From the NCBI GenBank assembly GCA_046290225.1, contig JBKAGE010000076.1, forward strand, positions 1-64,000: a stretch of DNA of 64,000 nt. Reading direction: 5' to 3'. Shown here in pieces: positions 12,365 through 55,781 of this stretch (positions are counted from its first letter, which is position 1; every line of letters starts with the position of its first letter). Under the pieces are notes generated by a model. The model was given only the letters and a program-made list of their open reading frames with translations, had not been told where the DNA came from and ran no database searches. The position numbers were made by a program, and so were the translations under genes. The DNA is from Bradymonadia bacterium. GTDB taxonomy: Bacteria > Myxococcota_A > Bradymonadia > UBA7976 > UBA1532.

Positions 12365-12408
12365 TCACGCCCGTAGCTTCTTACGCCCGCAGCCCTTACG
12401 CCCGCAGC
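12365..12408 (-). repeat. Three 13-bp copies of the gene-terminal sequence GCTGCGGGCGTAA
   Basis: Copies at 12365-12377, 12381-12393 and 12396-12408; the last is the true gene end. A similar pair lies at 14002-14014 and 14017-14029. Confidence 0.8.
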
Positions 12409-13988: not shown

Positions 13989-14016
13989 ACCGCTCACCCT
14001 CTCACGCACGCAGCTC

Positions 14017-15600
14017 TTACGCCCGCAACAATGTCACCGCCCGGCCTGAGGGCGTGGTGTGATCTTCAAAGCGGACACGGTCGTCCACGTCGGGGGCGTC
14101 GTCGCGCATATCGAAGATGACGAGCCAGCCGTGGGCCACGCCAGTGCGCCCCAAGTACTCGTCGATTTGCTCCAGGCCCCGCGCAAGTGGATCACCGCGG
14201 CGATCTCCAGTGGACCAGCGCTTCAGTTCAACGACCTCGCGCTGAAGCTGGCGGCCCTCTGCAGTCTCGTAGGGCCAACGCACCAAGAGGTCGATACGGC
14301 CGCGACCCATGCCGTACTCGCGGTCGATTGTGCCGCCACCGTTCACGACACGCTGTAAGAACGCCATCATCACAATCTGCGCCGTGGCTTCGGGGTACGT
14401 CTGCCCCGGACGGGCCATGGCCTCACCATGCTCCATCCAGAAGTCGGCAAAGGCCTGCATCGCCCCGCCCATATCGAAGCGGCCATCAGGCATCACGAAG
14501 CGCGCTGGCTCAGTGACGATGCGAGGGGTGTAGTTCGCCGTGAGGGCCCGGACCATCACCTCGCGATAGATGGGGTTCGCCGGGCGTATGGGCAGGTCGC
14601 GGGCGATGAGGCCCAGGTCGGTCACATAGCTCACATCGTCGCTGTATGTCATGTCGGAGCTTGTCTGAGGCGCGCCACCAGAGATGAGCGGCTCAAGCAC
14701 TCGATGCACAGGTGGCTCGTGCAGCTTTGACACCAGCGAGTCGAGGTGTGTCGCTCGAGCAAGGATCAACCGCGCCTTCGCCTGCTCGATGTGATCGACG
14801 GTGATGGTCTCGGTGATACGCATTTTGTGGATCACCTCGGCAGCGAGGCTGTTCACCAACCAGGGCTGCCCCTGCGTCAACTCAAAGGCGCGCAGCAGCG
14901 CAGCATCAGCGAATGCCTGTCCTGTCGTCTCAGTGTGCTCACGATAAAGAGCGGTCAGCTCACCAATACTGAAGTTGCCAACAGTGAGTGACTCCACCTT
15001 GATGTTGAACGGGCTCGCGGTCCCCAAGCGGTCGCTCCCCCCGCTGGCCTTTTTGTAATCACGCACATCGCGCAGCCCGCACAACACCACCGACCATGGC
15101 GCCCGAGCTGGGCGGTTGGGAAAACCAGCCCGCAGCTGACGTAGCACCACATTGAGCGCCTCACCCCTCAGGGCGTCGATCTCATCAAAGAGCAGCACCA
15201 GCTGTTTCGGGCAGGTCTGAGCCCATGTCGAGAGCGCGTTGAACAACATCGGTGGGGGCGAATCGAGCAGATCCTCGGGCGGCCGACAATCTGCGGGCAA
15301 CTGTGCAGAGGCCTCGGTGATCATCGTCCCGACGAGCTGTCGCATCGTCTCGTTGGGATCATCAGGCCATGCCGAGGCCGCCTCACAGGTGAAGTAGACC
15401 GCGGCCTGATCACCTTGAGCGTTGATGGCTTCAGCTGCAGCTCTGATGGTGGTGGTCTTGCCGCACTGTCGTGGGGCGTGCACCACGATGTAGTCGCCAT
15501 ACTCCACGTGATCGAGCAGCGAGGGCAAACGCGGCAACGGCGGCAACATATAGTGTCGCTGTCCGTCACAGGGCCCGGCGGTGTTGAAGCGCTTCTTCAT
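14017..15600 (-). CDS. AAA-like P-loop NTPase with C-terminal PD-(D/E)xK nuclease-like domain (paralog 1)
   Basis: Same motifs as the neighbour (APRQCGKTT, LFDEID, GRIDL...ELK); GAGGA RBS. Confidence 0.9.
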   Translation of the reverse strand: MKKRFNTAGPCDGQRHYMLPPLPRLPSLLDHVEYGDYIVVHAPRQCGKTTTIRAAAEAINAQGDQAAVYFTCEAASAWPDDPNETMRQLVGTMITEASAQLPADCRPPEDLLDSPPPMLFNALSTWAQTCPKQLVLLFDEIDALRGEALNVVLRQLRAGFPNRPARAPWSVVLCGLRDVRDYKKASGGSDRLGTASPFNIKVESLTVGNFSIGELTALYREHTETTGQAFADAALLRAFELTQGQPWLVNSLAAEVIHKMRITETITVDHIEQAKARLILARATHLDSLVSKLHEPPVHRVLEPLISGGAPQTSSDMTYSDDVSYVTDLGLIARDLPIRPANPIYREVMVRALTANYTPRIVTEPARFVMPDGRFDMGGAMQAFADFWMEHGEAMARPGQTYPEATAQIVMMAFLQRVVNGGGTIDREYGMGRGRIDLLVRWPYETAEGRQLQREVVELKRWSTGDRRGDPLARGLEQIDEYLGRTGVAHGWLVIFDMRDDAPDVDDRVRFEDHTTPSGRAVTLLRA

Positions 15601-26833: not shown

Positions 26834-27340
26834 ATGAAAGCAATATCCCTCACCCCCTCAGTACCGCCCTTTGGGCTGGTGCTCCTGGGGGCCCTGATGA
26901 GCCTGACCGTCGCCTGTGATGATGGCGGTGGCAACGAAACCGGAGGCGGCAGCGGCGGTGCAGGGGGCGCGGTGACGGCCGATGGCGGCATCATGCCCGA
27001 CGCCGATCTCGTGGTGACCCCCGACATGGGCCCGGACTGCGAGTTCGACGAGGCCTGTGGCCCCGATCAGATCTGCAATGACAGCGCATGTGTCGAGGCT
27101 GAATGCTCCGAGTCGGGGCAACAGGCCGAATGCGACGACGGCTTCATCTGCATCGAAGGCCGTTGTGTGGCGATCAACCCCTCGGTCACCGGCGCGTTCT
27201 GTACCGCGTGTGGGGTCAGTGGCTCTGAGGGTTACACCTTGCTCGGCGGCCTCGAAGCAGGCGCCACGGGCAGCATCGAATCTGAAAGTTATCGTTTGGA
27301 GGCGGGCGCCATCAGGGCCTTCGCCGGAGAGGATGAATGA
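26834..27340 (+). CDS. Cys-rich lipoprotein
   Basis: Lipobox TVAC, Gly-rich linker, two C-x5-C-x4-C-x4-C-like repeats; stop overlaps the start of the collagen gene. Confidence 0.8.
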
Positions 27341-30300
27341 TGAAAGCCATGCGTAGACGCCTCGAGCGGGGCAACCGCGGGCGCACTCACCTTCGGCGCT
27401 TTCTCGCCGCCGCCCTCGCCGCCGGTGGGATCATGGCCCTCGGCGTTCAGGCCCAAGCCCAGGTGCCCGAGGTCCTGACCCACAACGGCCGCCTGTTCGA
27501 TCAGGCCCAGCTCCCCATCACTGGTGAGCGGAACATGACCTTCGCCATCTACGGCGCCTCCGAAGACGGTGAACCTCTCTGGCAGGAATCCCTCTCCGGG
27601 GTGGTCTTCCAGAACGGCTACTACTCTGCCGATCTGGGCCTCGACACGCCTTTCCCGGAAGATGTGCTCGCTGGGGGCACACTCTTCATGGAGATCTCCA
27701 TCGGTGACGAGACGCTGAGCCCCCGGCTGCCCATCGCCTCCACCCTCTTCGCCCTCAAGGCCGCCGTGGCCGACGACGCCGTGGGCGACATCCACCCGTC
27801 CACCATCTCGGTGAACGGCCAGCTCGTCGTCGACAACGAGGGCCGCTGGGTGGGCGAGCTGCCCGATCTCGGTGATCTCCGCGGTGAGCAGGGGCCCGAG
27901 GGTCCCGAAGGCCCTCAGGGTCCTCGCGGCGATCAGGGCCTCCAGGGTCCTCAGGGCGAGCGCGGGCCGGCTGGTCCTCAGGGCCCCATCGGCCCCGAGG
28001 GTCCTCAGGGCGCCCGTGGTGAGCAAGGCATCCAGGGCCCCGCAGGTCAAGACGCCGACAACAACGAGATCGCGCGTCAGCTGGCGGTGGACGAAGACGT
28101 ACGCTTCGGCGTGGCCCAGAGCATCGCCGAGAACTTCGCCGACGAGGTGCGCGGGCCTGCCGGCCCTCAGGGCATTCAGGGCCCCCGGGGTGTGCAGGGT
28201 GATGTGGGCCCTCAGGGTGAGCAGGGTCCCTCTGGCCCCGCTGCTGATCCCGAGGAGACCTCCCTGGCCCTCGTGGACAACCAGAACTTCCTCGATCGTG
28301 TCTCCGCCACCCTCTTCGATCGCTTCGGCGACGAGCTCGAAGGTGATCAGGGCCCCCAGGGCATCCAGGGCATCCAAGGCCCTCAGGGTCCTCAGGGCGA
28401 GCCCGGCCAGGACGTCTCTGCGGACGCGGTGGCCAACCGACTCGGTGGCGACGAGGACTTCCGCGATGATGTGACCCTCAACCTCTTCGACAACTTCGCC
28501 GAAGAGCTCCGCGGCCCCATTGGCCCTCAGGGCATCCAGGGCCCTCAGGGTGACCAGGGCATTCAAGGCATTCAGGGTCCTCAGGGCGACCGCGGCCCTG
28601 AAGGCCCTCAAGGCGAGCAAGGCATCCAGGGCATCGCCGGGCCTCAGGGCCCTCAAGGTGATGTCGGGCCTCAGGGCGAGCAAGGCCCTCAGGGTGATCG
28701 AGGCCCTCAGGGCATCCAAGGCATCCAAGGCCCTCAGGGCGATGTCGGCCCCCAGGGTGACCAGGGCGTACCTGGTCAGGACTCAGATCCTGCAGACGTT
28801 GCTGGCCGCCTCGCCGAAGACAACAACTTCGTCGAAGACGTGACCCTCACACTCTTTGATGTCTTCGGTGAAGATCTCGTGGGTCCCCAAGGGCCTCAGG
28901 GCGACCAGGGCATCCAGGGTATCCAGGGTGAGCAGGGCATCCGTGGGCCTCAGGGCCTCACCGGCCCTCAAGGCGAGCAGGGCCCTCAGGGTCCTCAGGG
29001 CGACCAGGGTATCCAGGGTATCCAAGGTGTGCCCGGACAGGATTCCGATCCCGACGTGGTCGCCGGCCGCCTCGGCGAGGACGCCGACTTCATCACCAAG
29101 GTCCGCGACACCCTCTTCGACATCTACCAGGAAGATCTCACTGGCCCCCAGGGCCCTCGTGGCGAGCAGGGCATCCAGGGTATCCAGGGTCCCCAGGGCG
29201 ACCAGGGTATTCAGGGTGAGGTCGGCCCCCGTGGTCCTCAGGGCGAACAGGGCATCCAAGGTGAGGTCGGCCCCCAGGGCCCTCAAGGTGAGCAGGGTAT
29301 CCAGGGTATCCAGGGTGAACAGGGTGACGTCGGTCCCCAGGGCCCTCAGGGTGAGCAAGGCGATCAGGGTATCCAGGGTCCTCAAGGTGATCAGGGTCCC
29401 CAGGGTGAACAGGGCCCTCAGGGCGACCAGGGCCCTCAAGGCGAACAGGGTGAGGTCGGCCCCCAGGGTCCTCAAGGCGAGCAAGGCCCTCAAGGCATCC
29501 CCGGACCTCAAGGCGAGCAGGGCGATGTTGGTCCTCAAGGCCCTCAGGGTGACCAGGGCGATCAGGGTATTCCCGGCCCTCAAGGCCCCGAAGGTCCGCA
29601 GGGTCCTGCCGGCGAAGATGCCTCTGCAGAAGACGTGGCCACTGTGCTCGGCAACGATCAGGACTTCGCCGACACGGTGGTCCTGACCCTCGTGGACGCC
29701 TTTGGCGAAGAGCTCACCGGGCCGCAGGGCCCTCAGGGCGCCGAAGGTCCTCAAGGGCCTCAAGGTGTGCCTGGCCCTCAAGGCCCCGAGGGCCCCGTGG
29801 GCCCGCAGGGCCCGCAGGGTGACGACGCAGATCCTGTTGCGGTGGCGAACATCCTCGTAGAAGACGAGAACTTCTTCACCGCCCTCGGCGATGTGATCAC
29901 AGACCAGTTCGCTGACCGCATCCGCGGTGAGCAGGGCCCCCAGGGTGTTCAGGGCCCCGAGGGTCCTCAGGGTGAGGTCGGTCCCGCAGGCCCTCAGGGT
30001 GAGCAGGGCATCCAGGGTATTCAGGGTGAGCAGGGTCTCCAGGGTATCCAGGGTGAGCAAGGCCTCCAGGGTCCTCAGGGTGACGAAGGCCCCACAGGTC
30101 CCGAAGGGCCCCAAGGTCCTCAAGGTGACGTCGGCCCCGAAGGCCCTCAAGGCCCCGAGGGTCCCGAAGGTCCTCAAGGCCCTCAGGGTGACCAGGGCCC
30201 TCCCGGCCAGGACGCCTCGGCCCAGGCTGTGGCCACGGTGCTGGCGAACGACGCAGACTTCGCCGACACCATCGCCCTCGTGCTGTTCCAGGTCTTCGGC

Positions 30301-30870
30301 GACGACTTCGCCCAGACCCTCGCTGCCGACGTGGCGTTCCAAGGGACCGTGGCCACTGGCCTGACCAACAGCCAGGACTTCGTCGACACGGTCACGCTGA
30401 ACCTCGTGGAGAACTTCCAGGACGACCTCACCGGCCCCCAGGGTCCCCAAGGCCCTGCCGGTGAGGGTGTACCCTCAGGCGCGATCATGCCCTTCGCCCT
30501 CGCGAGCTGCCCTGCAGGCTGGATCGCAGCAGACGGCGCCAACGGCACGCCTGATCTCCGCGGGCGCATGCCCCTCGGTGTCGGCGCCCTCGGCGGGACT
30601 GCGTTGCCCGACAGCGTCGGGCTGGGTCAGGTAGGCGGCGGCAGCGAGTTCCGCATGTTCGTGCAGAACAACCTCGTGGCCATCGGGGACAACGATCAGG
30701 CGATTCAGGGTGCCGGCCTTCGCTGGTTCCAGGCAGACGGCCAACAAGAGAGTGTCTCGTTCGCCAACAATGGCAACGGCCAAGACTCAGGTGACACCGA
30801 AGGGGCCAACGCCCGCCACCTGCCCCCCTACGTGGGTCTGCTCTACTGCGTGAAGGCTGATCAGAACTGA
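27337..30870 (+). CDS. Secreted collagen-like fibre protein with a phage tail-collar-like C-terminal domain
   Basis: Signal peptide (AQA), long G-X-Y runs ([12 protein letters not shown]) broken by about 35-aa repeats, and C-terminal PSGAIMPF...CPAGW...[12 protein letters not shown]...[11 protein letters not shown]. Confidence 0.92.
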
Positions 30871-44995: not shown

Positions 44996-45781
44996 ATGCT
45001 CGCCGTCGTCTCCCCCGCCAAGAAGCTCGATTACTCCCCTGCCCCCGAGGCCCTGCCCTTCACCCGTCCGGCCCTCTCGGAAAAAACCCGGGCCCTCGCC
45101 GAGGTCACTCGCACACTCTCCGCCGCAGATCTCAAAGGCCTGATGCGCATCAGCGACAACCTCGCCGAGTTGAACCATGGCCGATTTCAGCGCTTCATCC
45201 TCGACGAGAGCGCCCTCACCCTCGGTGAGCACGCCAAACAGGCAGCTCTGGCGTTCAGCGGTGACACCTATGTCGGTCTTCAGGCCAGCGAGATGAGCCA
45301 GGACGATCTGCAATGGGCTCAGGATCATCTCGCCATTCTTTCAGGGCTGTACGGGGTGCTCCGCCCCCTCGATCTCATCCAGCCCTACCGCCTCGAAATG
45401 GGCACCCGTCTGCAGACTTCCGCCGGCAAGACCCTGTATGCGTGGTGGGGGACCGACATCGCCGAGCGCCTGAAGGCCATCGTGGCCGACCACGACAGTC
45501 CGGTGATCCTCAACTGTGCGAGCAATGAGTACTTCAAGGCCATCGACACCCAGGCCCTGGGGGTGCGCGTGATCACACCGGTCTTCAAGGAGATCAAAGA
45601 CGACAAGGCCCGCACGTTGGGCATGTTCGCCAAACGCGCTCGGGGCATGATGGCGCGTTACCTCGTCACCCACCGCCTTGAAAACCCTGAAGATTTGAAG
45701 GGGTTCGATCTTGGCGGATACAGCTTCCAGAGCGATGGCTCGTCGGCGGACACATGGCTCTTCACACGCCCTCAACCTTGA
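44996..45781 (+). CDS. yaaA: Peroxide stress protein YaaA (DUF328)
   Basis: SPAKKLD, ILSGLYGVLRPLD, YRLEMG, NCASNEY, AKRARGMMAR. Confidence 0.95.
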   Translation: MLAVVSPAKKLDYSPAPEALPFTRPALSEKTRALAEVTRTLSAADLKGLMRISDNLAELNHGRFQRFILDESALTLGEHAKQAALAFSGDTYVGLQASEMSQDDLQWAQDHLAILSGLYGVLRPLDLIQPYRLEMGTRLQTSAGKTLYAWWGTDIAERLKAIVADHDSPVILNCASNEYFKAIDTQALGVRVITPVFKEIKDDKARTLGMFAKRARGMMARYLVTHRLENPEDLKGFDLGGYSFQSDGSSADTWLFTRPQP

Positions 45782-45954: not shown

Positions 45955-48252
45955 GTGAGCCTCTTCGTCTTCAGCTCTGCGATCTGCGCGACCACCTTCG
46001 GCATCAATGCGTGTTTGTTGCTGACATGGTTCTGGCGCAAGCCCGATGCACGCATGCTGGGCCTGTTCAGCCTTTCCGTGTCCTGCTTCTTCGGTCTGGA
46101 GTTCATCTGGCGCCTGTCAGGTGATCCAGCGCACTTCGCCGCCCTGTATCCCACATACATGGCGATGATTTTGCCCATGGTGGTGCTGTTCATGCACTTC
46201 GCCATGCTCTACGCCGGCTACGGCTCGGCGCCGCGTTTTCAGCGCACCGCCGGTGTCCTCTACGCCCTCGCGGTGGTGCTGGGTCTGTCTGTGTACCTCG
46301 TGCCCACCCCCAAGCCCATCACGCTCGGCGGCATCCAAGCGGTCGACGACATGCACCAGCACTGGTTGCTCATCATGGTGAAGGGGGTCGCCTCGATCTT
46401 CAGCATGGCCGTGGGCGCGCTGTTGGTGCGGGCGATGCTCAACCAGACCCACCCCGACGAGCGGCGGCGCCAGAAGATGCTGACTCGGCTCGCAGTGCTC
46501 AGCGTCGTGTGCCTCGTCCCCCTCGAGGTCTCCCGAGTGATTCTGTCGTGGGATCTGCCGAACCTCTCTTCCACTGTACTGCCCCTCTACAGCGTCGCGT
46601 TGATCTGGAGCCTGATTCAACGCACCCCCTTCGAGATCTCGCCCCTGGCGGTCTCTCGCGAGGTGATGGACTGTATGTCGGAAGGGCTGATCTTGTGCTC
46701 ACCTACAGGGCAGATCCGCTACATCAACCCGTCGATGAAACGCATGACCGGGTGGGACATCGACGATCTCATCGATGCACCTTTGAGCCGAATCTGCCCG
46801 GATCTCGAAGAGCTGTTTGCCTCCTCGGACGACTACTTTTTGATGCACGCCAAGGAGACCAGCCTCCTGACCCTTGGTGATCGGCCCCTGCCAGTGCTGA
46901 TCTCGCTCAACCCGGTCACCAATCGTCAGGACCAAGTTCAGGCCCTCGTGCTCACCGCCACCGACATCACTGGCCGGCGTCTGAACCAGTTGGAACTGCA
47001 AACAGCGAAGGACAAGGCTGAGGCAGCCACTCGGGCAAAGAGCGCGTTCCTGGCCACCATGAGCCACGAGATCAGGACCCCGATGAACGGGGTCATTGGC
47101 ATGACCGGGCTGCTGGCAGAGACCGATCTCACCTCAGAGCAGACCGAGTACGTCGAGACCATCCGCCGAAGCGGCGACGCTCTACTGGCGATTTTGAACG
47201 ACATCCTCGACCTCTCGAAGATCGAAGCGGGCCGGGTAGAGGTGGAGCAACACGCCTTCAACCTGTACCGCCTGCTCCTCGACTGTCAGGAGCTGCTGGG
47301 CTCGAGGGCTCAGGCCAAGGGCCTCGAGTTCTCGGTGCAGATCCACCCGCGGGTACACAAGTACATCCGCGGTGACTCTGCCCGCCTGCGGCAGGTGGTG
47401 ATGAACCTGCTGAGCAACGCGGTGAAGTTCACCGAAAAGGGCTCGGTCAGCTTGATCTGTGAGCCCCTGCCCAACGACATGGTTTCCCTCAAGGTCACCG
47501 ACACGGGTGTAGGCATCCCCGAAGACCGGATGAACCGCCTGTTCCAGCCCTTCAGCCAGGTCGACGCTTCGATCAACCGCCGCTTTGGCGGCACGGGCCT
47601 GGGGCTGGTGATCAGTGAGCGCCTCGCAAGCCTGATGGGCGGCTCGCTCACGTGTGCCTCGGTGCTGGGTGAGGGCACCACCTTCACGCTGAAGTTCAAG
47701 GGCATACAGGCAGAGAGTCCTCAGCTGAGCACCATCGAGATGGGGGCCTTCAAGCCTGTGCAGACCACCGAGCTCTCGGTGCTCATCGCAGAGGACCACC
47801 CCATCAACCAGCGCGTGACGCAGAAGATGTTGGAGCGCATGGGGCTCAGCGCCGACGTGGCCTTCAACGGCCTCGAAGCCCTGGCCGCCCTGGAGCGCCG
47901 CCACTACGATGTGGTGCTCATGGACATGCAGATGCCCGAAATGGACGGCCTCGAAGCCACCCGACGCATTCGCGAGCGCTACGGCAAGTGCGGCACGCGC
48001 TCACCCGAGATCCACGATCGCTTCGGGCCCTACATCATCGCCCTCACGGCCAACGCCATGAAGGGCGACGAGACCCGCTGCCGAGAGGCGGGTATGGACG
48101 ACTACCTGAGCAAGCCCGTGAAGCCCATGGCGCTGTATCAGGCCTTGAGTCAGGTGGTGGTGGCCCCCAAAGACACCCCGCCTTCCGCTGACCCCATCCA
48201 CGGCGGGCCCACAGCAGCGGAGCCCCCACCGCCTCCGGTCGATCCTTCTTGA
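45955..48252 (+). CDS. Multi-TM PAS hybrid sensor histidine kinase/response regulator
   Basis: About 7 TM N-terminal segments, PAS, FLATMSHEIRTPMNG, NLLSNAVKFT, GGTGLGL, and receiver MDMQMPEMDG...KP. Confidence 0.95.
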   Translation: MSLFVFSSAICATTFGINACLLLTWFWRKPDARMLGLFSLSVSCFFGLEFIWRLSGDPAHFAALYPTYMAMILPMVVLFMHFAMLYAGYGSAPRFQRTAGVLYALAVVLGLSVYLVPTPKPITLGGIQAVDDMHQHWLLIMVKGVASIFSMAVGALLVRAMLNQTHPDERRRQKMLTRLAVLSVVCLVPLEVSRVILSWDLPNLSSTVLPLYSVALIWSLIQRTPFEISPLAVSREVMDCMSEGLILCSPTGQIRYINPSMKRMTGWDIDDLIDAPLSRICPDLEELFASSDDYFLMHAKETSLLTLGDRPLPVLISLNPVTNRQDQVQALVLTATDITGRRLNQLELQTAKDKAEAATRAKSAFLATMSHEIRTPMNGVIGMTGLLAETDLTSEQTEYVETIRRSGDALLAILNDILDLSKIEAGRVEVEQHAFNLYRLLLDCQELLGSRAQAKGLEFSVQIHPRVHKYIRGDSARLRQVVMNLLSNAVKFTEKGSVSLICEPLPNDMVSLKVTDTGVGIPEDRMNRLFQPFSQVDASINRRFGGTGLGLVISERLASLMGGSLTCASVLGEGTTFTLKFKGIQAESPQLSTIEMGAFKPVQTTELSVLIAEDHPINQRVTQKMLERMGLSADVAFNGLEALAALERRHYDVVLMDMQMPEMDGLEATRRIRERYGKCGTRSPEIHDRFGPYIIALTANAMKGDETRCREAGMDDYLSKPVKPMALYQALSQVVVAPKDTPPSADPIHGGPTAAEPPPPPVDPS

Positions 48253-50576
48253 GCATCCCTCTGGGCCCCTGGTCCCTCAGCCCTCGATATTTCGTCCGCA
48301 CCAGTGGGGTGCCCTTCGAGCGCATCGAGCTCACCGATGAGCATGTCGATGCCATCTCCGAGGCGCTGGGTCGCCTCGACGCATCCCACGCCCACATCGA
48401 GGCAACCGCGTCAGCAGCCCACCTATGGCTCGATGACGCTCCGGATGTACCGACGAACACACGGCGACGTCTTCGCCGCCACATCGCCCGACGTGTCCCT
48501 CTGCCTGAGGGGCTGAGCGCCCTCGATGCATGCCTCGAAGCCTATACAGATGCCCTTCACAGGCATGCTCGATCCACCCAGGCACTGACGACGTCGTACG
48601 ACGCGCTGCGCCTCACCGCCCGCGAGCAGCTGTGGGCCGCCTGGAACACAGAACAGGTGAGCGACGCCATCACCCTCTTGAGCCCGAAGGCCGCCGCCTG
48701 GCTGGGCAAGGGCAACTTCACCTCCGAGGAAGGCGCACGACAGCGCAAACTGGAGCGCCGGCTCTATCTGTATCTACAGCGTCTGTGCACCAAGGCTGAG
48801 ACTACGAGCAGCTTCGGCCCCATCGCCAGCGGCCAGGTGGAGCATGGCGCCACTGGTGTGCACATGCGCCATGGGCCTCGACTCATTACACAGGGCCGCG
48901 CCTATCCGTCGGGCTGGCTGGTCAGAGCTGTGGCGGCTCAGGGGGCTGTGCGCTTCGGCGACGCGTTGCCTGTGAGGCCTGCCCTCGACGTCGTGACGTG
49001 CCCTGACGGCACGTACCGATATGTCGACGTGAGCCCCTTCGAGCGTCGTTGGTTGCCTGACGATGGTCTGCGGAGCCGAACCCCGGCCACCCCTCGGCAA
49101 CATGCTGACGGCTTGAGCGCCCTCGCCGAGTCCTGGTCACACATCGACCACCCGGAGATCCGCACCTTCGTCGGCGACGTCGAGGCCCTGGCGGCTCAGA
49201 TCCGCGCGTTCCCCCTCACCTCGGGCGCTGCACGCCGTGAGGCCCTCGCGGCCATCGCAACACAGGCCGAGGCCCTCACAGGTGAGCCCGGGTACCGCGG
49301 CGCGGGTGAGATGTACGCCGATCGGATGCCCTTCTTCGAGGACTGTACTCGGGATGTTGAGCGGTTCGTCATCGGGCACGACATCGTACAGGCCATGGCC
49401 CCACTCGGCGCCGCCCTCGATCTCTGGCTCGGTGCCGGGGTCTCTCAGAGGCTGCACCTCGCCGACATCCACCACACATGGCGCGCCCACTGTTTCCCCG
49501 AAGCCCTGCAAGGCGAGCCGGTGGACATGGGGGTGTTCCTGCAGCGATATCATCAGGCCCTGCAGGCTGAAACACTCGAAGACGCCATCTTCGCCAGCCA
49601 GCATCGGCTCAACCTCACCCCGCCCATGCCAAGAGCGCTGCTCGACGCCATCGACGCATCACCCGATGCCGTGTGTCCCGTCGATCTCGAGGCCCTGCCC
49701 GGAGATCGTGGGCAGGAGCCCGCGGTCGCCTCTTTCGACGTACATCTGCTGCCCCCTTGCGATGGTCATGGCTGGCAGGTGGTTCTCGGCGAGGGTCATG
49801 CCATGGTGTGTGCCTTTCAGTTCTTCCTCGATGGCCTGCCCGATGAAGCAGAGTTCTACGCCGAGCTCGACGACATCTATCGCGCCGTCACCGACGACGA
49901 GGTGCTGCTCAAAACCTACGACACTTTCGACGCCAAACTCTCCTACCGGTATCTGTCACCTGCACTGGTGGACTTCGACCCTGGCGCTGAAGGCCCACCG
50001 GATCGGCCCAAGATCGGATGGGCTGATCTGAAACTGCACTTCGAAGAAGGTGGCTGGCATCTCTCCACCCCCGATCCGAGAGCGGACCATCAAAGGCGCC
50101 GAGGGCGGTTTCTGCTCAAGGCGCCTCGAGAGCTGGGCCCCGAGCACGCGCTGCCGGGCGTGGCGCTACAGGGGAAGGGCCTCCCTCGCCCCGGTGTCGA
50201 GTCATCCCCGAGGGTGGTCGACGGCGATCTGGTACTCTTCAGGCGCACCTGGAGGCTGGCCCCAGAACAACTGATGCGCTGTAACGCCCCCACCCGAGCG
50301 GCCACCTTTGCCCGAGTGCACCGGCTGAGATGCAGCCTCGAGATCCCGCGGTTCTTCTTCGTCAAGGCACCTGATGAGCCCAAGCCCATCTGGATCGACG
50401 CCTTGAACCCGGTGGCCATCGACCTGCTGATCTCGCTGGCACGTCACAGCGACCGCCCGCTGATCTGCTCGGAAATGCTCCCTGACCCCAGTCAGCTCTG
50501 GTTTAGAGACGACCGTGGGCGCTACGTCTGTGAGCTCCGCGCGAATCTATACCGACGCCAGGTGAATCATCGGTAG
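48249..50576 (+). CDS. Stand-alone lantibiotic dehydratase N-terminal-domain protein (small LanB/PEARL-like)
   Basis: YLQRLCTKAETTSSFGP, FFEDC, VVLGEGH, PRV...LFRRTW, PRFFFVK...EPKPIWID...N, SEMLP...LW...YVCELR. The protein ends without an elimination domain. Confidence 0.85.
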   Translation: MSIPLGPWSLSPRYFVRTSGVPFERIELTDEHVDAISEALGRLDASHAHIEATASAAHLWLDDAPDVPTNTRRRLRRHIARRVPLPEGLSALDACLEAYTDALHRHARSTQALTTSYDALRLTAREQLWAAWNTEQVSDAITLLSPKAAAWLGKGNFTSEEGARQRKLERRLYLYLQRLCTKAETTSSFGPIASGQVEHGATGVHMRHGPRLITQGRAYPSGWLVRAVAAQGAVRFGDALPVRPALDVVTCPDGTYRYVDVSPFERRWLPDDGLRSRTPATPRQHADGLSALAESWSHIDHPEIRTFVGDVEALAAQIRAFPLTSGAARREALAAIATQAEALTGEPGYRGAGEMYADRMPFFEDCTRDVERFVIGHDIVQAMAPLGAALDLWLGAGVSQRLHLADIHHTWRAHCFPEALQGEPVDMGVFLQRYHQALQAETLEDAIFASQHRLNLTPPMPRALLDAIDASPDAVCPVDLEALPGDRGQEPAVASFDVHLLPPCDGHGWQVVLGEGHAMVCAFQFFLDGLPDEAEFYAELDDIYRAVTDDEVLLKTYDTFDAKLSYRYLSPALVDFDPGAEGPPDRPKIGWADLKLHFEEGGWHLSTPDPRADHQRRRGRFLLKAPRELGPEHALPGVALQGKGLPRPGVESSPRVVDGDLVLFRRTWRLAPEQLMRCNAPTRAATFARVHRLRCSLEIPRFFFVKAPDEPKPIWIDALNPVAIDLLISLARHSDRPLICSEMLPDPSQLWFRDDRGRYVCELRANLYRRQVNHR

Positions 50577-50738: not shown

Positions 50739-52841
50739 ATGAACATCTCGGTCAAGGCAGGCGACACCCCACTGCTCAGCGGCCTCGCCGCTGCGCTGTG
50801 CGAGGCTCTCGGCGCGCCAGCACCGGCAGAACTCGATCTGCTCATCGGAGGTCGGCTCATCGACGCCGATCTCGACCCCGAGCTGCGCCTCGAAGAAGCG
50901 CTTCAAGCCACGGGGCTTCGACCCAGTCAGATCCACGCCACCCTCACCGAAGCCCGCTGGTCCAGCGATCCTCTGGTGGCTCGAGCACCCGCATCGGACC
51001 ACTCGATCCGCTGGGTGGCCATCATCGGCGCCCGCCGGCGCAAGCTGAAGGTGGTCATCGCTGATCAGTCCGGCATCCGCCGCCGGCTGATGACCATGAA
51101 GGACACGGCCCAGCTGCTCGGCCTGACCGATCACCGCACCCCTGTGGCCTTCATGCAGGTCGAGGCGGCTCTGCCCCTCGAAGCTCTGCGACTCAGCGGC
51201 GCCCACCCCAACCCCTGGGAGCGGGTGAGGGCCCTGATGCGCCTCGAGCGTCAGGAGATCAGCACCCTCGTCGTCTACGCCGTGGTGGTGGGCTTCTTGA
51301 GCCTCGCCACGCCGGCGGCGGTGCAGACGCTGGTGAACACGGTGGCCTTCGGCACGCTGCTGCAACCCCTGGTGGTGCTCACAGCGGTGCTCTTCATCTG
51401 TCTGGCCTTCTCCGGCGTGCTCCGGGTGTTGCAGTACTATGCCGTGGAGATTTTGCAGCGGCGCCTGTTCGTACGGGTGGTGCTCGATCTCGCAGGGCGC
51501 CTGCCCCAAGTCGACGAGCGCATGCTGGGCAAATACAACATGCCCGAGCTGGTGAACCGCTTCTTCGATGTGGTCACGGTGCAGAAGTCGGCCTCGAAGC
51601 TGCTCCTCGACGGCCTCGAGCTGGGTCTGCAGACCCTCATCGGCATGATCTTGCTGGCTCTGTATCACCCCTTGCTGCTGGCCCTCGACGTGGTGCTCAT
51701 CGGCGCCATGCTCGTGGTGCTCTTCGTCATGGGGCGCGGATCGAGCCGCACCGCCCTCGCGGAGTCGGACGCCAAGTACGCCGTGGCGGCGTGGCTCGAA
51801 GACGTGGCGGCGCAGCCTCAGGTCTTCCGGTCAGGCAAGGGGGCCCAGGCGGCCCTGGAGCGGGCCAACGGCCTCGCCACCACCTACCTCGCCCGGCGCA
51901 ATGACCACTACCGCATCGTGTTGCGACAGTTCATGGGCGGCGTGGGCATTCAGGTGGTGGCCAACACCCTGGTGCTGGGCATCGGCGGCTGGCTGGTGCT
52001 CGACGGGCAGCTCACCCTGGGTCAGCTCGTGGCCTCCGAGCTCATCGTCGCCCTCGTGGTGGCCGGTATGGCCAAGATCGGCAAGCAGCTCGAGACCCTC
52101 TACGATCTCGTCGCCGGCCTCGCCAAGATCGGCAAGCTCGTCGACCTGCCCCTCGACCACAGGCGCGATCACGCCAGCTCGTCACCTTCGGGCACCGCCC
52201 TCACGCTGCAAGACGTGGCTCTGCCCTCTGGCGTGAAGATCCCCGACATGGAGATGCGCCCTGGTGATCGCCTGCGCGTGCTGGCCACCATGCCCGACTG
52301 TCGGCGGCAGTTCCTCGGCGCCCTCGAGGGCCAGGTGCCCCTGGCCAAGGGCAGGATCCAGCTCAACGGTGAAGACGTGCAGCGGCTGTCGCCCATGAAC
52401 CTCGGGGACCACGTGGCCCGCATCGAGGGCCCGGCGCCGGTGAACGGCACCATCCTCGAGTACCTTACCCTGGGCCTCGACGGGGTTCGGGGCACCGAGA
52501 TCGACGCCGCCCTCGAGGCTGTGGATCTGCTCGAGACGGTGGGCCGTCTACGGGGCGGCCGGGCCACGCGCCTGATCTCCAGTGGCGCCCCTTTGAGCCC
52601 GGAGCGCTGTGCCCTGCTCGCCGTGGCCCGGGCCCTGCTCGCAGGGCCCCAGGTGCTCATCATCGACGACTGGCTCGACCGCTTGCCCCCAGAGCAACGC
52701 CGCCGCGTGCTCGACAACCTGAGCGCGTGGCCTCAACCCATGGTGCTCATCATCGCCACCCACCTCCCCTCGGACGCGTGCCCGTGGGATCACAGCGTGT
52801 GCCTGCAGGTGGGCAGCGACATCAACGGCGAGGAGGCCTGA
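50739..52841 (+). CDS. Type I secretion ABC transporter (TM domain plus degenerate nucleotide-binding domain)
   Basis: ABC membrane domain (LSLATPAAVQ, PELVNRFFDV, LTLGQLVASE). The NBD has ARALL...LIIDD but no Walker A. Confidence 0.88.
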   Translation: MNISVKAGDTPLLSGLAAALCEALGAPAPAELDLLIGGRLIDADLDPELRLEEALQATGLRPSQIHATLTEARWSSDPLVARAPASDHSIRWVAIIGARRRKLKVVIADQSGIRRRLMTMKDTAQLLGLTDHRTPVAFMQVEAALPLEALRLSGAHPNPWERVRALMRLERQEISTLVVYAVVVGFLSLATPAAVQTLVNTVAFGTLLQPLVVLTAVLFICLAFSGVLRVLQYYAVEILQRRLFVRVVLDLAGRLPQVDERMLGKYNMPELVNRFFDVVTVQKSASKLLLDGLELGLQTLIGMILLALYHPLLLALDVVLIGAMLVVLFVMGRGSSRTALAESDAKYAVAAWLEDVAAQPQVFRSGKGAQAALERANGLATTYLARRNDHYRIVLRQFMGGVGIQVVANTLVLGIGGWLVLDGQLTLGQLVASELIVALVVAGMAKIGKQLETLYDLVAGLAKIGKLVDLPLDHRRDHASSSPSGTALTLQDVALPSGVKIPDMEMRPGDRLRVLATMPDCRRQFLGALEGQVPLAKGRIQLNGEDVQRLSPMNLGDHVARIEGPAPVNGTILEYLTLGLDGVRGTEIDAALEAVDLLETVGRLRGGRATRLISSGAPLSPERCALLAVARALLAGPQVLIIDDWLDRLPPEQRRRVLDNLSAWPQPMVLIIATHLPSDACPWDHSVCLQVGSDINGEEA

Positions 52842-52842
52842 A

Positions 52843-54195
52843 ATGAACGGACACGCCCCCCGCATCCGCGGTGAATCAGCTCTGCGCCGGGTCAAATCGC
52901 CCCGCATGGTGGGCAAGATGGCCCGGGCCCTCGCCTGGATCATCCCCGGCGGCATCCTCACCATGGCCTTCGTGCCCTGGCAGCAGACCGCCAAGGGCTT
53001 CGGCCGCGTGATCGCCTACGCCCCCCTGGAGCGCACCCAGGCCATCACGGCTCCCCTCGACGGCCGCGTGACCGAATGGAAGGTCCAGGAAGGCGACCTC
53101 GTCAATGAGGGCGATCTCATGGCGGTGATCGCCGACAACGATCCTGATCTGCTCGATCGCTTGGGACAGGAGCTTACGGCAGTCAAGACGTCCATCCACG
53201 CCAACCAGGCCTCTGCCCATGCCCTCGAGAAGCAGATCGAAGCTCTGGAAGAGGCCCGTACGCTGGCGCTCTCCGCCGCAGAGGCCAACGTCAAGGTGGC
53301 TCAGCAGAAGGTCCGGGCCCAGAAGCGCGCCCTCGAGGCAGAGCAGGCGGTGTATCGCACGGCGAAGCTCAATCTGACCCGCCGGGAGAAACTGGGCAAA
53401 GAGGGGCTGGTCTCACAGCGTGATCTCGAGCTCGCCGAGCTGTCTGCGGCGAAGGCCCGGACCTCGGTGGCCAAAGCCAAGGCTGCCCTCGAAGCAGCAC
53501 GGGGCTCGGTGCTGAGCAAAGAGGCCGAGCGAGAGCAGAAAGCCGCTGACAACCTCGCCAAGATCGCCAAGGTTCGGTCTTCGCTGGAGAAAGCGCGCTC
53601 TGACCTGGCCAAAGCCAACGCCGATCGGATCAAGGTGGAGACGAAGCTTGCCCGTCAGGCCCGCATGGAGGTCCGGGCCCCGAGAGACGGCACGGTGCTG
53701 CGCCTCATCGTCCGGGCCAACACCGAGTTCGTGAGCCCTGGTGATCCCATCGCCACCCTGGTGCCCGAGAGCACCGATCGGGCGGTGGAGCTCTGGGTGT
53801 CGGGGAACGACGCGCCGCTGGCAGCGCCCGGGCGCAAGGTGCGCCTGCAGTTCGAAGGCTGGCCTGCGGTGCAGTTCTCTGGCTGGCCCTCGGTGGCCGT
53901 GGGCACCTTCGGCGGCGTCGTGGCCTTCGCCGACGCCACCGCCGACGCCTCCGGCCGGTTCCGGGTGGTGGTCCGCCCTGATCCGGACGACAACCCCTGG
54001 CCCGTGGACAACACCTTGCGTCAGGGGGTCCGGGCCAATGGCTGGGTGCTCCTCGATCAGGTCACCATCGGCTTCGAGCTGTGGCGTCAGCTCAACGGCT
54101 TCCCCGCCTCGGTCCCCGCAGATGATCCGCTGCTGCAGACCGGCGACAAAGACGGCAAGAAAAAGAAGAAGAAAAAGAAGAAGGACGACAAGTGA
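52843..54195 (+). CDS. HlyD-family membrane fusion protein
   Basis: TM, PWQQ, lipoyl-like APLDGRV...VQEGD, coiled coil, VRLQFEGWPAVQFSGWP. Confidence 0.92.
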   Translation: MNGHAPRIRGESALRRVKSPRMVGKMARALAWIIPGGILTMAFVPWQQTAKGFGRVIAYAPLERTQAITAPLDGRVTEWKVQEGDLVNEGDLMAVIADNDPDLLDRLGQELTAVKTSIHANQASAHALEKQIEALEEARTLALSAAEANVKVAQQKVRAQKRALEAEQAVYRTAKLNLTRREKLGKEGLVSQRDLELAELSAAKARTSVAKAKAALEAARGSVLSKEAEREQKAADNLAKIAKVRSSLEKARSDLAKANADRIKVETKLARQARMEVRAPRDGTVLRLIVRANTEFVSPGDPIATLVPESTDRAVELWVSGNDAPLAAPGRKVRLQFEGWPAVQFSGWPSVAVGTFGGVVAFADATADASGRFRVVVRPDPDDNPWPVDNTLRQGVRANGWVLLDQVTIGFELWRQLNGFPASVPADDPLLQTGDKDGKKKKKKKKKDDK

Positions 54196-55781
54196 TCACA
54201 TCGTGGTGTCTGGTGGCCTTGCTGGGCGCCCCCCCTGTGGGTGACGTGCCTGCAGCAGATGTGTCACCTGCGGATGCGCTCACAACCAGCAAACCTGCTG
54301 GCAAAGAATCTTCTGACAAGACCCCCTCTCGCGAGGTGCCCTCCAAGGACAACCTGCCTCGAGTCGACAAGTTGCCTCGACCGTCTTCGCTCGACGTCTT
54401 CGAAGAAGATCTGCTCGCTGTCGAGAGCGGCACCCTCACCTCGGGTGAAGCGCTGACGCTGAACCAGGTGATGGGCACGGTGGATGATCATCACCCGATG
54501 CTCCGGGCAGCACAGGGCAAGATCGACGAGGCCGAGGGCAAGCGCTTCTCTGCAGAGGGTGGCTTCGATCTCAAGCTGAAGGCTGGCCAGAAGCTGATCC
54601 CCTTCGGCAAGGACGAGTACGGCCACACCGAAGCCATGGTGGAGCAGCCCACCACCTTGTGGGGCACCACCTTCTTCGGCGGCTACCGTCGCAGCAGCGG
54701 CGAGGTGCCTGCCTACGCTGGCGATCTGGAAACAGTGGGGGCCGGTGAGGCCGTGGTGGGGGCGAAGATCCCCCTGTGGCAGGGTGGCGCCATCGATCGT
54801 CAGCGCGCCGACTTGCAGCAGACCGGTCTCGGTATCCGCATCGCCGAGCTGAGCCGACAGAAGATGCAGCTGAAGCTCTACGGCGGCGCCGCAGAGGCCT
54901 ACTGGAAGTGGGTGGCCGCCGGCCACGTGTTGCGCATCAGGCAGCATCTGCTCGAGGTGGCCCAGCTGCGCATGAAGCAAATCGAAGATCGCGTCGCCCG
55001 TGGTGATTTGCCGGAGATCGATCGCATCGACAACCAGCGCTCGATCTTGAAGCGCGAGTCGAGCCGGGTGAAGGCCACCCGAAAACTGCAGGAGGCGGCC
55101 CTCAAGCTCTCGCTGTACGTGAGAGATGGCGACGGTCGCCCACGGCAGCCGCTGCTCAAGAGCCTGCCCCCCAAGATCCCCATGGCGCCTGATCTGCCGG
55201 CCACCGAGGTGGGCGGCGACGTCGAGGCCGCTCAACGCCGCCGACCAGAGCCGGCGCAGATCGAGCTGGCCCGAGATCAGCTGCAAATCGAGGTGGATCT
55301 CGCCGACAACCAGACGGCCCCTCAGATCGACTTCACCGTGGCGGGCATCGAGCCCCTCGAGGAAGACAAGAAGTTCAAGACCGAGCTCGAAGCCGGGGTG
55401 AAGTTCACCATGCCCCTGCAGCGCCGCAAGGCCCGGGGTAAGCGCGCGGCCGCTCAGGCCGCCAAGACCCAGCTCGAGGCTGAATCCACCTTCCTCAACG
55501 AGCGTATCGCCGTCGAGGTGGCCGACGCCCGCTCGGCCCTCGAAGCCGCCGCCCAGCAGGTCGAGGTGGCCCGTCAGGAGCTGAAGGTGAGCCGCCTCGT
55601 GGAAGACGCAGAGCACACCCGCCTCGATCTGGGGGCGAGCACGCTTCTGGTGGTGAACTTGCGGGAGCAGGCCACCGCCGACGCCGCCGAGCGCTTCGTA
55701 CAGGCCCTCGCCGAGCAGCACATCGCCTACGCCCGCTGGCGGCTGGCTCAAGGTGTGTGGGTGCCCGAGCCCAGGCAGTGA
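54192..55781 (+). CDS. TolC-family outer membrane protein
   Basis: Two OEP-like repeats (AEAYWKW...GDLPEID; LGASTLLVVNLRE); follows the ABC and HlyD genes. Confidence 0.9.
   Translation: MITSWCLVALLGAPPVGDVPAADVSPADALTTSKPAGKESSDKTPSREVPSKDNLPRVDKLPRPSSLDVFEEDLLAVESGTLTSGEALTLNQVMGTVDDHHPMLRAAQGKIDEAEGKRFSAEGGFDLKLKAGQKLIPFGKDEYGHTEAMVEQPTTLWGTTFFGGYRRSSGEVPAYAGDLETVGAGEAVVGAKIPLWQGGAIDRQRADLQQTGLGIRIAELSRQKMQLKLYGGAAEAYWKWVAAGHVLRIRQHLLEVAQLRMKQIEDRVARGDLPEIDRIDNQRSILKRESSRVKATRKLQEAALKLSLYVRDGDGRPRQPLLKSLPPKIPMAPDLPATEVGGDVEAAQRRRPEPAQIELARDQLQIEVDLADNQTAPQIDFTVAGIEPLEEDKKFKTELEAGVKFTMPLQRRKARGKRAAAQAAKTQLEAESTFLNERIAVEVADARSALEAAAQQVEVARQELKVSRLVEDAEHTRLDLGASTLLVVNLREQATADAAERFVQALAEQHIAYARWRLAQGVWVPEPRQ

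What the first reader, a model, noticed from the sequence alone, without database searches (positions are those of the whole stretch)
48249..50576. Orphan PEARL-like (tRNA-dependent small LanB) enzyme coupled to a sensor kinase and beside a type I secretion system
Seen: a LanB N-terminal domain without an elimination domain, with its start overlapping the kinase stop. No clear precursor peptide, cyclase, elimination protein or tailoring genes are nearby. Known: stand-alone LanB-N proteins (PEARLs such as TglB) append amino acids from aminoacyl-tRNA to peptide C-termini, normally inside biosynthetic clusters. Inference: this enzyme may modify a distant peptide or a full-size protein, an undescribed use of the chemistry, with export possibly via the adjacent ABC-HlyD-TolC.
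Basis: partly seen in the sequence, partly recalled or inferred. Interest (0 to 1): 0.7.

Follow-up and report, generated by a model that had tools for sequence, protein, structure and literature searches.

The report
Orphan tRNA-dependent ligase with rewired pocket
This gene encodes an enzyme with the full active-site signature of ligases that add an amino acid from a charged tRNA to a peptide's tail, yet no usual target peptide or partner enzymes were found in its nearly complete genome, so it likely acts on a different, still unknown target, while the neighbouring kinase and exporter are probably incidental.

Summary
48249-50576 (+) is a 775-aa LanB-N-only protein whose TTG start overlaps the kinase stop. 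It is a PEARL by sequence: 13 of 13 mapped BhaB7 active-site positions are kept, including the PEARL-only Asp497 and Arg764. The 99%-complete genome gave no elimination domain, YcaO, condensation domain or TglA/AmmA-type scaffold (controls rang).

It defines a rare, long-branch subfamily of three species. Its predicted peptide-binding loop is acidic in 3 of 3, but basic in 22 of 23 scaffold-linked PEARLs. This copy also lost about 36 residues of its RRE.

The neighbours are weak links. No homolog of the kinase sensor part was found elsewhere. The ABC-HlyD-TolC triplet has a degenerate ATPase and occurs in 88 of 401 phylum genomes, nearly all without a PEARL. However, shared contig lengths put PEARL and HlyD together in one sister species.

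Best reading: an active ligase for an unlinked, non-canonical polypeptide C-terminus. The substrate is not identified. The scan earlier noted orphan PEARLs beside kinases on other DNA (Verrucomicrobia); I did not test those notes.

The parts
48249..50576 (+). PEARL-type (LanB-C) enzyme, 775 aa, founder of a three-species divergent subfamily
48771..48821 (+). tRNA 3'-CCA-binding helix and motif, residues 175-191 (Y175, R178, K182); the family Asn is Ala183 in all three subfamily members
   Evidence: roles from PMC11962472
49044..49050 (+). Site of an in-frame loss of about 36 residues (RRE helices), specific to this copy: 47 residues between positions 243 and 290, against 82 and 84 in the orthologs
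49314..49325 (+). Y356-A-D-R359 motif (BhaB7 Y426/R429 equivalents)
49737..49799 (+). ATP-grasp-like metal ligands D497, E515, H517 (BhaB7 D558/E575/H577); D497 is PEARL-specific
49920..49937 (+). Predicted substrate-contact loop, residues 558-563: two Asp in 3 of 3 subfamily members where scaffold-type PEARLs have Arg/Lys
   Evidence: loop role from the AlphaFold3 model in PMC11962472
50532..50540 (+). E762-L-R764 (BhaB7 E813/R815); R764 is PEARL-specific
45955..48252 (+). Membrane hybrid histidine kinase (TM region, PAS, HisKA, HATPase, REC); stop overlaps the PEARL start; probably co-transcribed, link not found conserved
50739..52841 (+). ABC-type membrane protein with degenerate nucleotide-binding domain
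52843..54195 (+). HlyD-family adaptor; its 80%-identical ortholog shares contig lengths with the PEARL ortholog
54192..55781 (+). TolC/OEP outer-membrane channel
44996..45781 (+). yaaA-family gene upstream, same strand; found in 6 of 27 family genomes that lack the PEARL

Best explanation
The protein carries the complete PEARL active-site signature and is likely an active ligase that would phosphorylate a C-terminal carboxylate with ATP and couple it to an aminoacyl-tRNA, most likely on a polypeptide encoded elsewhere whose tail is predicted to be non-acidic, unlike known scaffold peptides. Shown: the family, the residues, the searched-for partners not being found, the acidic loop and the RRE loss. 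Inferred: activity (about 0.8 on its own), a polypeptide rather than small-molecule acceptor, and that the kinase and the ABC-HlyD-TolC triplet are incidental neighbours. The donated amino acid cannot be predicted.
For: 37 of 41 positions conserved in at least 85% of 219 other PEARL-type proteins are kept. D497 and R764 are present, while 0 of 9 full-length LanB controls have either. These two residues separate PEARLs from split LanBs (PMC11117183). All 13 BhaB7 positions map with identical residues, through a locus protein whose numbering runs at a constant offset of 15-16 to BhaB7. 35 of the 41 sites are identical between this protein and its 52%-identical ortholog, and lineage-specific changes are similar (88 vs 77), so no sign of decay. 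Not found in the genome: PF14028 (control 4 of 4), YcaO (control 5 of 14), condensation domain (control 4 of 14), TglA/AmmA-type scaffold (17 found in other loci; control E 5e-13). The 558-563 loop has two Asp in 3 of 3 members; 22 of 23 scaffold-locus PEARLs have at least 2 basic residues there and 0 of 23 have 2 acidic ones. The loop aligns without gaps to the scaffold type and differs from the 10 NRPS-linked enzymes. BhaB7 can label tagged full-size proteins, and the substrate segment expected to bind its RRE is dispensable (PMC11962472).
Against: No substrate was identified and no expression data exist. The family-wide Asn of the K-N-E/D-T motif (92%) is Ala; the paper with the TglB mutants was not held. 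This copy lost its RRE helices and has a low codon score (0.23, about the 10th-25th percentile), both compatible with decay. The TglB-like enzyme of L095 also lacks the basic loop yet sits beside an acidic scaffold, so loop charge does not strictly predict substrate charge. The higher profile score to the scaffold group (357-376 vs 142-177 bits) is biased by group size, 48 vs 10. PEARL and HlyD are co-located in a second species, which fits a real link to the triplet as well as plain inheritance. The ortholog neighbourhoods could not be read.
Confidence: 0.45

Rival explanations
1. Same chemistry, but the acceptor is a small-molecule or lipid carboxylate (SnaE-like), giving an N-acyl amino acid or similar metabolite; no peptide substrate exists.
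For: SnaE amidates a short non-ribosomal carboxylate (PMC11212132). No scaffold was found in the genome. RRE lost here. Five adenylate-forming enzymes by motif.
Against: No condensation domain and no ketosynthase motif by a crude pattern. The substrate loop does not resemble the 10 NRPS-linked enzymes. Both orthologs keep a full-length RRE segment.
Confidence: 0.22
2. A relic of a lost biosynthetic cluster, now decaying.
For: Found in 0 of 112 other class genomes. RRE deletion. Low codon score. No partners found.
Against: Open frame and 37 of 41 conserved sites kept across three species at 44-52% identity, with no rate excess in this copy. RRE-short PEARLs recur: 17 of 231 aligned proteins. 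Listed read pieces from near relatives over the gene show no gaps (table 8).
Confidence: 0.15
3. PEARL and the ABC-HlyD-TolC triplet form one unit: the enzyme modifies a cargo, or a component, that the triplet exports.
For: Same strand, 162-bp gap. Orthologs share contig lengths 87,932 and 10,481 in a second species. HlyD tails in this clade are very Lys-rich (9-11 of the last 25 residues), a charge match to the acidic loop.
Against: The triplet's ABC is in 88 of 401 phylum genomes and 3 of 27 family genomes without this PEARL, elsewhere next to NhaR-like regulators. Its ATPase is degenerate. 0 of 5 other PEARL genomes have it. No HlyD member with the third ortholog's contig lengths appeared in the 16 HlyD clusters read (16 of 120 listed). 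Lys-rich tails occur in 42 of 122 HlyDs and are expected to be periplasmic (general knowledge).
Confidence: 0.1
4. The enzyme modifies the coupled hybrid kinase (for example its 30-residue Pro-rich C-terminal tail) or acts in its signalling pathway.
For: Overlapping stop and start. Earlier scan notes report orphan PEARLs fixed beside hybrid kinases in Verrucomicrobia (unchecked). Myxococcaceae PEARL pairs follow a STAS-Ser/Thr kinase gene.
Against: No homolog of the kinase's residues 1-350 among 8000 candidates or in 27 family genomes; weak, since the same tool missed the 45%-identical PEARL ortholog (vs 18). No histidine kinase match in the other PEARL loci fetched. Such overlaps are 16% of co-directional pairs.
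Confidence: 0.06
5. Glutamylation half of a split LanB (thiopeptide or lanthipeptide dehydratase).
For: PF04738 hit; best solved relative is TbtB (6EC7, E 2.5e-47 for the family profile). Ala183 matches the LanB residue in 8 of 9 controls.
Against: D497 and R764 present; no PF14028 or YcaO found in the genome.
Confidence: 0.02

Closest known systems
RiPP-type PEARLs: BhaB7 (BhaBC-Trp), TglB, TmoB, AmmB1-4
   Same: LanB-N-only architecture; the ATP-site residues (D558/E575/H577/R715/F755/K763/E813/R815) and tRNA-end residues (R34/Y205/R208/Y426/R429) of BhaB7 all have identical counterparts.
   Different: No scaffold peptide, tailoring enzymes or protease nearby, and no scaffold found in the genome. 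Acidic instead of basic substrate loop; Asn-to-Ala in the K-N-E-T motif; RRE helices deleted in this copy; about 20-29% identity to PEARL relatives outside the subfamily.
SnaE-type PEARL-like amide ligases of NRPS/PKS clusters (PMC11212132)
   Same: No ribosomal precursor nearby; same catalytic signature.
   Different: No NRPS condensation domain found in this genome; substrate-loop pattern differs from 10 NRPS-linked enzymes.
Split LanB glutamylation proteins (TbtB, PDB 6EC7)
   Same: Same fold family.
   Different: PEARL-only Asp and Arg present; no elimination partner found.
Orphan PEARLs of Chthoniobacterales noted earlier by this scan (e1-7823297, e1-4383069, e1-4303662, e1-3896806; unchecked AI notes)
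   Same: Orphan PEARL beside a hybrid kinase, no precursor.
   Different: Those are reported as order-wide and syntenic with ParA; this one is rare and its kinase link was not found conserved. No look-alike by sequence, and no protein outside the subfamily scores above 142 bits.

Membership tests
PEARL enzyme family (LanB-C) | LanB N-terminal domain without elimination domain in the protein or neighbourhood | tested here: met
PEARL enzyme family (LanB-C) | ATP-site residues found only in PEARLs (TglB D542, R803) plus E801 | tested here: met
   D497, R764, E762; D and R absent in 9 of 9 LanB controls
PEARL enzyme family (LanB-C) | tRNA 3'-CCA-binding residues (BhaB7 Y205, R208, R429; R34) | tested here: met
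   Y175, R178, R359, R17; the variable Q201/R197 sites are R171/K167
PEARL enzyme family (LanB-C) | ATP- and aminoacyl-tRNA-dependent amide formation at a carboxylate | not testable with these tools
   needs an assay
PEARL enzyme family (LanB-C) | Embedded RRE (typical, reported non-essential) | tested here: inconclusive
   Helices deleted here, full-length segment in both orthologs; no structure model of my own was available
Pearlin / pyrroloiminoquinone RiPP cluster (tgl, tmo, bha, amm) | Co-encoded acidic scaffold peptide | tested here: not met
Pearlin / pyrroloiminoquinone RiPP cluster (tgl, tmo, bha, amm) | Clustered tailoring enzymes and protease | tested here: not met
   the six DUF692 genes lie on other contigs, three beside their own Cys-rich ORFs
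SnaE-type NRPS-linked ligase | NRPS/PKS line in the cluster | tested here: not met
Split LanB (TbtB type) | Separate PF14028 elimination protein; Tyr/Leu in place of the PEARL Asp/Arg | tested here: not met
Type I secretion system (neighbour triplet) | ABC + HlyD + TolC genes | tested here: met
   (all below NCBIfam T1SS cut-offs)
Type I secretion system (neighbour triplet) | Catalytically intact ABC ATPase (Walker A, LSGGQ, Walker B Glu) | tested here: not met
   this copy lacks all three and keeps the switch His

The most novel reading that the evidence does not exclude
This subfamily uses aminoacyl-tRNA to extend the C-terminus of full-size cellular proteins: a non-templated C-terminal aminoacylation used as a protein modification (a tag, or a C-degron or export switch) in predatory Myxococcota, with an acidic pocket selecting basic tails. 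Orphan PEARLs recur in other Myxococcota, and a natural scaffold tail fused to a 509-aa enzyme in one Rhodobacter genome suggests that PEARLs can meet protein-sized substrates.
Probability: 0.25. Interest if true: 0.85.

Novelty: new variant of a known kind. Interest (0 to 1): 0.52.

Why it matters
All PEARLs in the papers I read act inside biosynthetic clusters, on acidic scaffold peptides or NRPS intermediates. An intact PEARL kept across three species, in a genome where neither substrate type was found and with a charge-reversed substrate loop, points to a third substrate class. If it is a protein tail, that is a new ribosome-independent post-translational modification. It would also be a natural starting point for C-terminal protein-labelling tools with a different tag preference. 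The case is weakened by rarity, an unknown substrate and neighbours that look incidental.

Tried and rejected
Ortholog loci could not be read. The scan of metagenome contigs gave 18 loci of distant relatives only; the first scan of genome contigs confirmed 0 of 93 candidate stretches. Searches of 40 relatives, 27 family, 112 class and 400 phylum genomes found no subfamily member. Plasmids gave only weak hits (16 records).

No structure model of my own could be made. The fold rests on the Atlas model (pTM 0.81; TM 0.78-0.85 to lantibiotic-dehydratase-N clusters) and a profile search of solved structures. The single sequence found 0 solved relatives.

No RNA holder was listed; this says nothing on expression. 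Three marine DNA runs from 2 studies hold short pieces of the locus, 5 listed inside the PEARL gene, none spanning the RRE deletion, so the deletion was not independently confirmed. One low-depth contig shows a +2/-3 indel pair at 50399-50405 that I could not assess.

LanC search: no match, but the control was silent. Promoter scan: 0 sites, uninformative. DUF692 loci as distant partners: rejected, no scaffold near any of the 6. Stand-alone PqqD genes as a trans RRE: both lie in unrelated contexts. RTX-type cargo: 3 candidates, all on other contigs.

Phylogeny (231 proteins of 600-1250 aa, 694 columns, FastTree; P0060-P0154 left out): subfamily support 1.0 on a 1.23 branch, sister group unresolved (0.35-0.62).

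Literature searches for an orphan or signalling-linked PEARL found nothing relevant (one search was too broad to count). Zhang 2019 and Ting 2019 were not held. No complex prediction was run, as no binding is claimed.

Full report
OBSERVATION. The ORF 48249-50576 (+) encodes 775 aa from a TTG that overlaps the TGA of a 765-aa hybrid histidine kinase; ABC, HlyD and TolC genes follow after 162 bp. The TTG is the first start in the frame and is needed to include W8 and R17. Pfam finds PF04738 (40.1 bits, cut-off 28) and nothing else; NCBIfam finds nothing. The genome (8.58 Mb, 99.4% complete) has no second PF04738 gene. Close HlyD homologs are labelled Bradymonadia or Myxococcales by their sources, as is one PEARL ortholog, so the host is probably a Myxococcota (inference). 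Short DNA pieces of near relatives lie in three marine runs.

IT IS A PEARL BY SEQUENCE. PMC11117183 (passages) states that TglB D542 and R803 occur only in PEARLs. PMC11962472 (parts 1 and 3 of 6 plus passages) and PMC12945691 (passages) list the BhaB7 ATP-site and tRNA-end residues. I had no BhaB7 sequence. However, an ORF in L005 carries all 13 residues at a constant offset of 15-16 to BhaB7 numbering, and its columns correspond to R17, Y175, R178, Y356, R359, D497, E515, H517, R665, F704, K712, E762 and R764 here, all identical. Of 41 positions at least 85% conserved in 219 other PEARL-type proteins, 37 are kept; the misses are N183A, R216G, a gap at 507 and L752F. Nine full-length LanB controls lack both D497 and R764. 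The Atlas model agrees with the fold, and the family profile's best solved relative is TbtB. Supplementary alignments of these papers were not read and may bear on the Asn-to-Ala change.

NO USUAL PARTNERS. PF14028 gave 0 matches here and rang in 4 of 4 LanB-bearing genomes. YcaO and condensation domains gave 0, with controls ringing in 5 and 4 of 14. LanC gave 0 with a silent control. A scaffold profile built from 14 distinct peptide tails recovered 17 TglA/AmmA-type peptides in other PEARL loci and nothing in this genome's 107,323 ORFs (best E 4.6 for whole ORFs, 1.6 for tails). An independent six-frame search agreed (control E 5e-13). Six DUF692 genes lie on other contigs, without a scaffold nearby. 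A scaffold of a new sequence type would escape these tests.

A RARE, DIVERGENT SUBFAMILY. Among 1.84 billion representatives only two others score above 142 bits: P0003 (735 bits) and P0007 (433 bits). Pairwise identities are 52, 44 and 45% (using the full-length P0159). The clade has support 1.0 on a long branch and no resolved sister. It was not found in 112 other class genomes or 400 phylum genomes. Conserved sites are identical between P0002 and P0003 at 35 of 41 against 52% overall, and lineage-specific changes are 88 vs 77. I read this as purifying selection (inference).

TWO FEATURES BEAR ON THE SUBSTRATE. First, this copy has 47 residues where the orthologs have 82 and 84 and the family median is 85: the RRE helices are gone, in frame. 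Similar shortening occurs in 17 of 231 aligned proteins, and the substrate segment expected to bind the RRE is dispensable for BhaB7 and TglB. Second, the loop that the BhaB7 model places on the acidic scaffold helix (S619/K620) has at least two basic residues in 22 of 23 PEARLs from scaffold loci (12 of 17 loci sampled, at most two each) and two acidic residues in none. All three subfamily members have two Asp there. The one exception, L095, sits beside an acidic scaffold, so the rule is not strict. The loop aligns without gaps to the scaffold type and differs from 10 NRPS-linked enzymes. I infer a polypeptide acceptor with a neutral or basic tail.

THE NEIGHBOURS. Kinase: residues 1-350 found only themselves among 8000 candidates and nothing in 27 family genomes. 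This is a weak negative, because the same tool missed P0007. No histidine kinase matched in the other PEARL loci fetched up. Four-base overlaps make up 446 of 2872 co-directional pairs by crude gene calls. Triplet: the ABC lacks Walker A, LSGGQ and the Walker B Glu; among 12 family members LSGGQ is absent in all, the Glu is present in 1 and a canonical Walker A in 3. It occurs in 88 of 401 phylum genomes. None of the 7 other PEARL-type genomes is among them (0 of 5 on deeper search; PEARL counts are lower bounds). Elsewhere it lies next to NhaR-like regulators (2 of 7 regions), cytochrome bd or a P-type ATPase. It is thus an independent cassette.

AGAINST THAT READING. The 80%-identical HlyD cluster and the P0003 cluster share two contig lengths, 87,932 and 10,481. 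The four genes need about 7.6 kb, so PEARL and triplet are almost certainly neighbours in a second species (inferred from lengths, not read). No HlyD with the third ortholog's contig lengths appeared in the 16 of 120 HlyD clusters read. Inheritance of gene order between close relatives explains this; a functional link is not excluded.

CONTEXT. Orphan PEARLs recur in the phylum. In 7 regions from 6 genomes I found no scaffold or NRPS motif, and three of these genomes gave no convincing scaffold hit genome-wide (one weak match, E 0.002, inside a 583-aa frame). Earlier scan notes describe an order-wide orphan PEARL between a hybrid kinase and ParA in Verrucomicrobia (unchecked; no look-alike by sequence). 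One named Rhodobacter assembly (L103) has a TglA-type tail fused to a 509-aa class III aminotransferase inside a tgl-like cluster. Its PEARL was found in 1 of 251 family genomes, so the fusion is a single observation and may be an assembly error. SnaE shows that non-peptide acceptors exist (PMC11212132, passages). PMC9303977 (passages) notes that the donated amino acid cannot be predicted. PMC12452194 (passages) added nothing on orphans.

MECHANISM AND VERDICT. Most likely the enzyme phosphorylates a C-terminal carboxylate with ATP, is attacked by an aminoacyl-tRNA and releases the tRNA (established for the family; inferred here, about 0.8). The acceptor is most likely an unlinked non-canonical polypeptide (0.45). 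Rivals: small molecule 0.22, relic 0.15, unit with the triplet 0.10, kinase target 0.06, split LanB 0.02. It is a member of the PEARL enzyme family by sequence but not of any described PEARL system: a new variant of a known kind. Searches for a published orphan or signalling-linked PEARL found none, in a library that lacks most subscription papers. Interest 0.52.

Noticed in passing
L103:3039-4568 (+) (Rhodobacter sp. assembly, JASJDP010000029.1): A 509-aa class III aminotransferase ends in a TglA-type acidic scaffold tail (profile E 1e-4), in a cluster with a PLP decarboxylase, DUF692, PEARL, MFS, two methyltransferases and an M50-like peptidase. This would be a natural PEARL substrate fused to a full-size enzyme. 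Single genome (1 of 251 family genomes has this PEARL); no report seen in the listing.
   Followed up: partly
window 50739-55781 and L130-L148: A widespread ABC-HlyD-TolC cassette (88 of 401 phylum genomes) whose ABC lacks LSGGQ in 12 of 12 and the Walker B Glu in 11 of 12. It sits next to NhaR-like LysR genes or a small conserved ORF of about 100 aa that looks like a winged-helix regulator (label recalled; no NCBIfam hit). Function unknown.
   Followed up: partly
L057, L068 (Archangium, Myxococcus): Tandem PEARL pair directly after a STAS + Ser/Thr kinase gene and before a DAO-family oxidase. Both enzymes keep the basic substrate loop, but no scaffold was detected in the fetched flanks.
   Followed up: partly
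L125, L126, L127, L128: Further solitary PEARLs in other Myxococcota among unrelated genes; they too lack the basic loop. In L126 the PEARL is convergent with a glutaminyl-tRNA synthetase-type gene.
   Followed up: partly
G000 C77:93386-93850, C40:24769-25326, C79:258921-260096: Cys-rich repeat ORFs beside three of the genome's six DUF692 genes, probably bufferin-like or related MNIO substrates.
   Followed up: no
window 52843-54195: HlyD ends in a run of nine Lys; Lys-rich tails occur in 42 of 122 homologs and are among the longest in this clade.
   Followed up: partly
window 27337-30870: 1177-aa protein with 12 collagen triple-helix stretches.
   Followed up: no
window 12396-15600: Two tandem paralogous AAA ATPase + PD-(D/E)XK nuclease genes.
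   Followed up: no
G000 C36:439764-444732 and C35:371554-371841: Two stand-alone PqqD-family genes; the first heads a tight four-gene run that I did not annotate.
   Followed up: no
G000, whole genome: ARAGORN called one tRNA-Pyl and one tRNA-Sec; not checked and possibly spurious.
   Followed up: no
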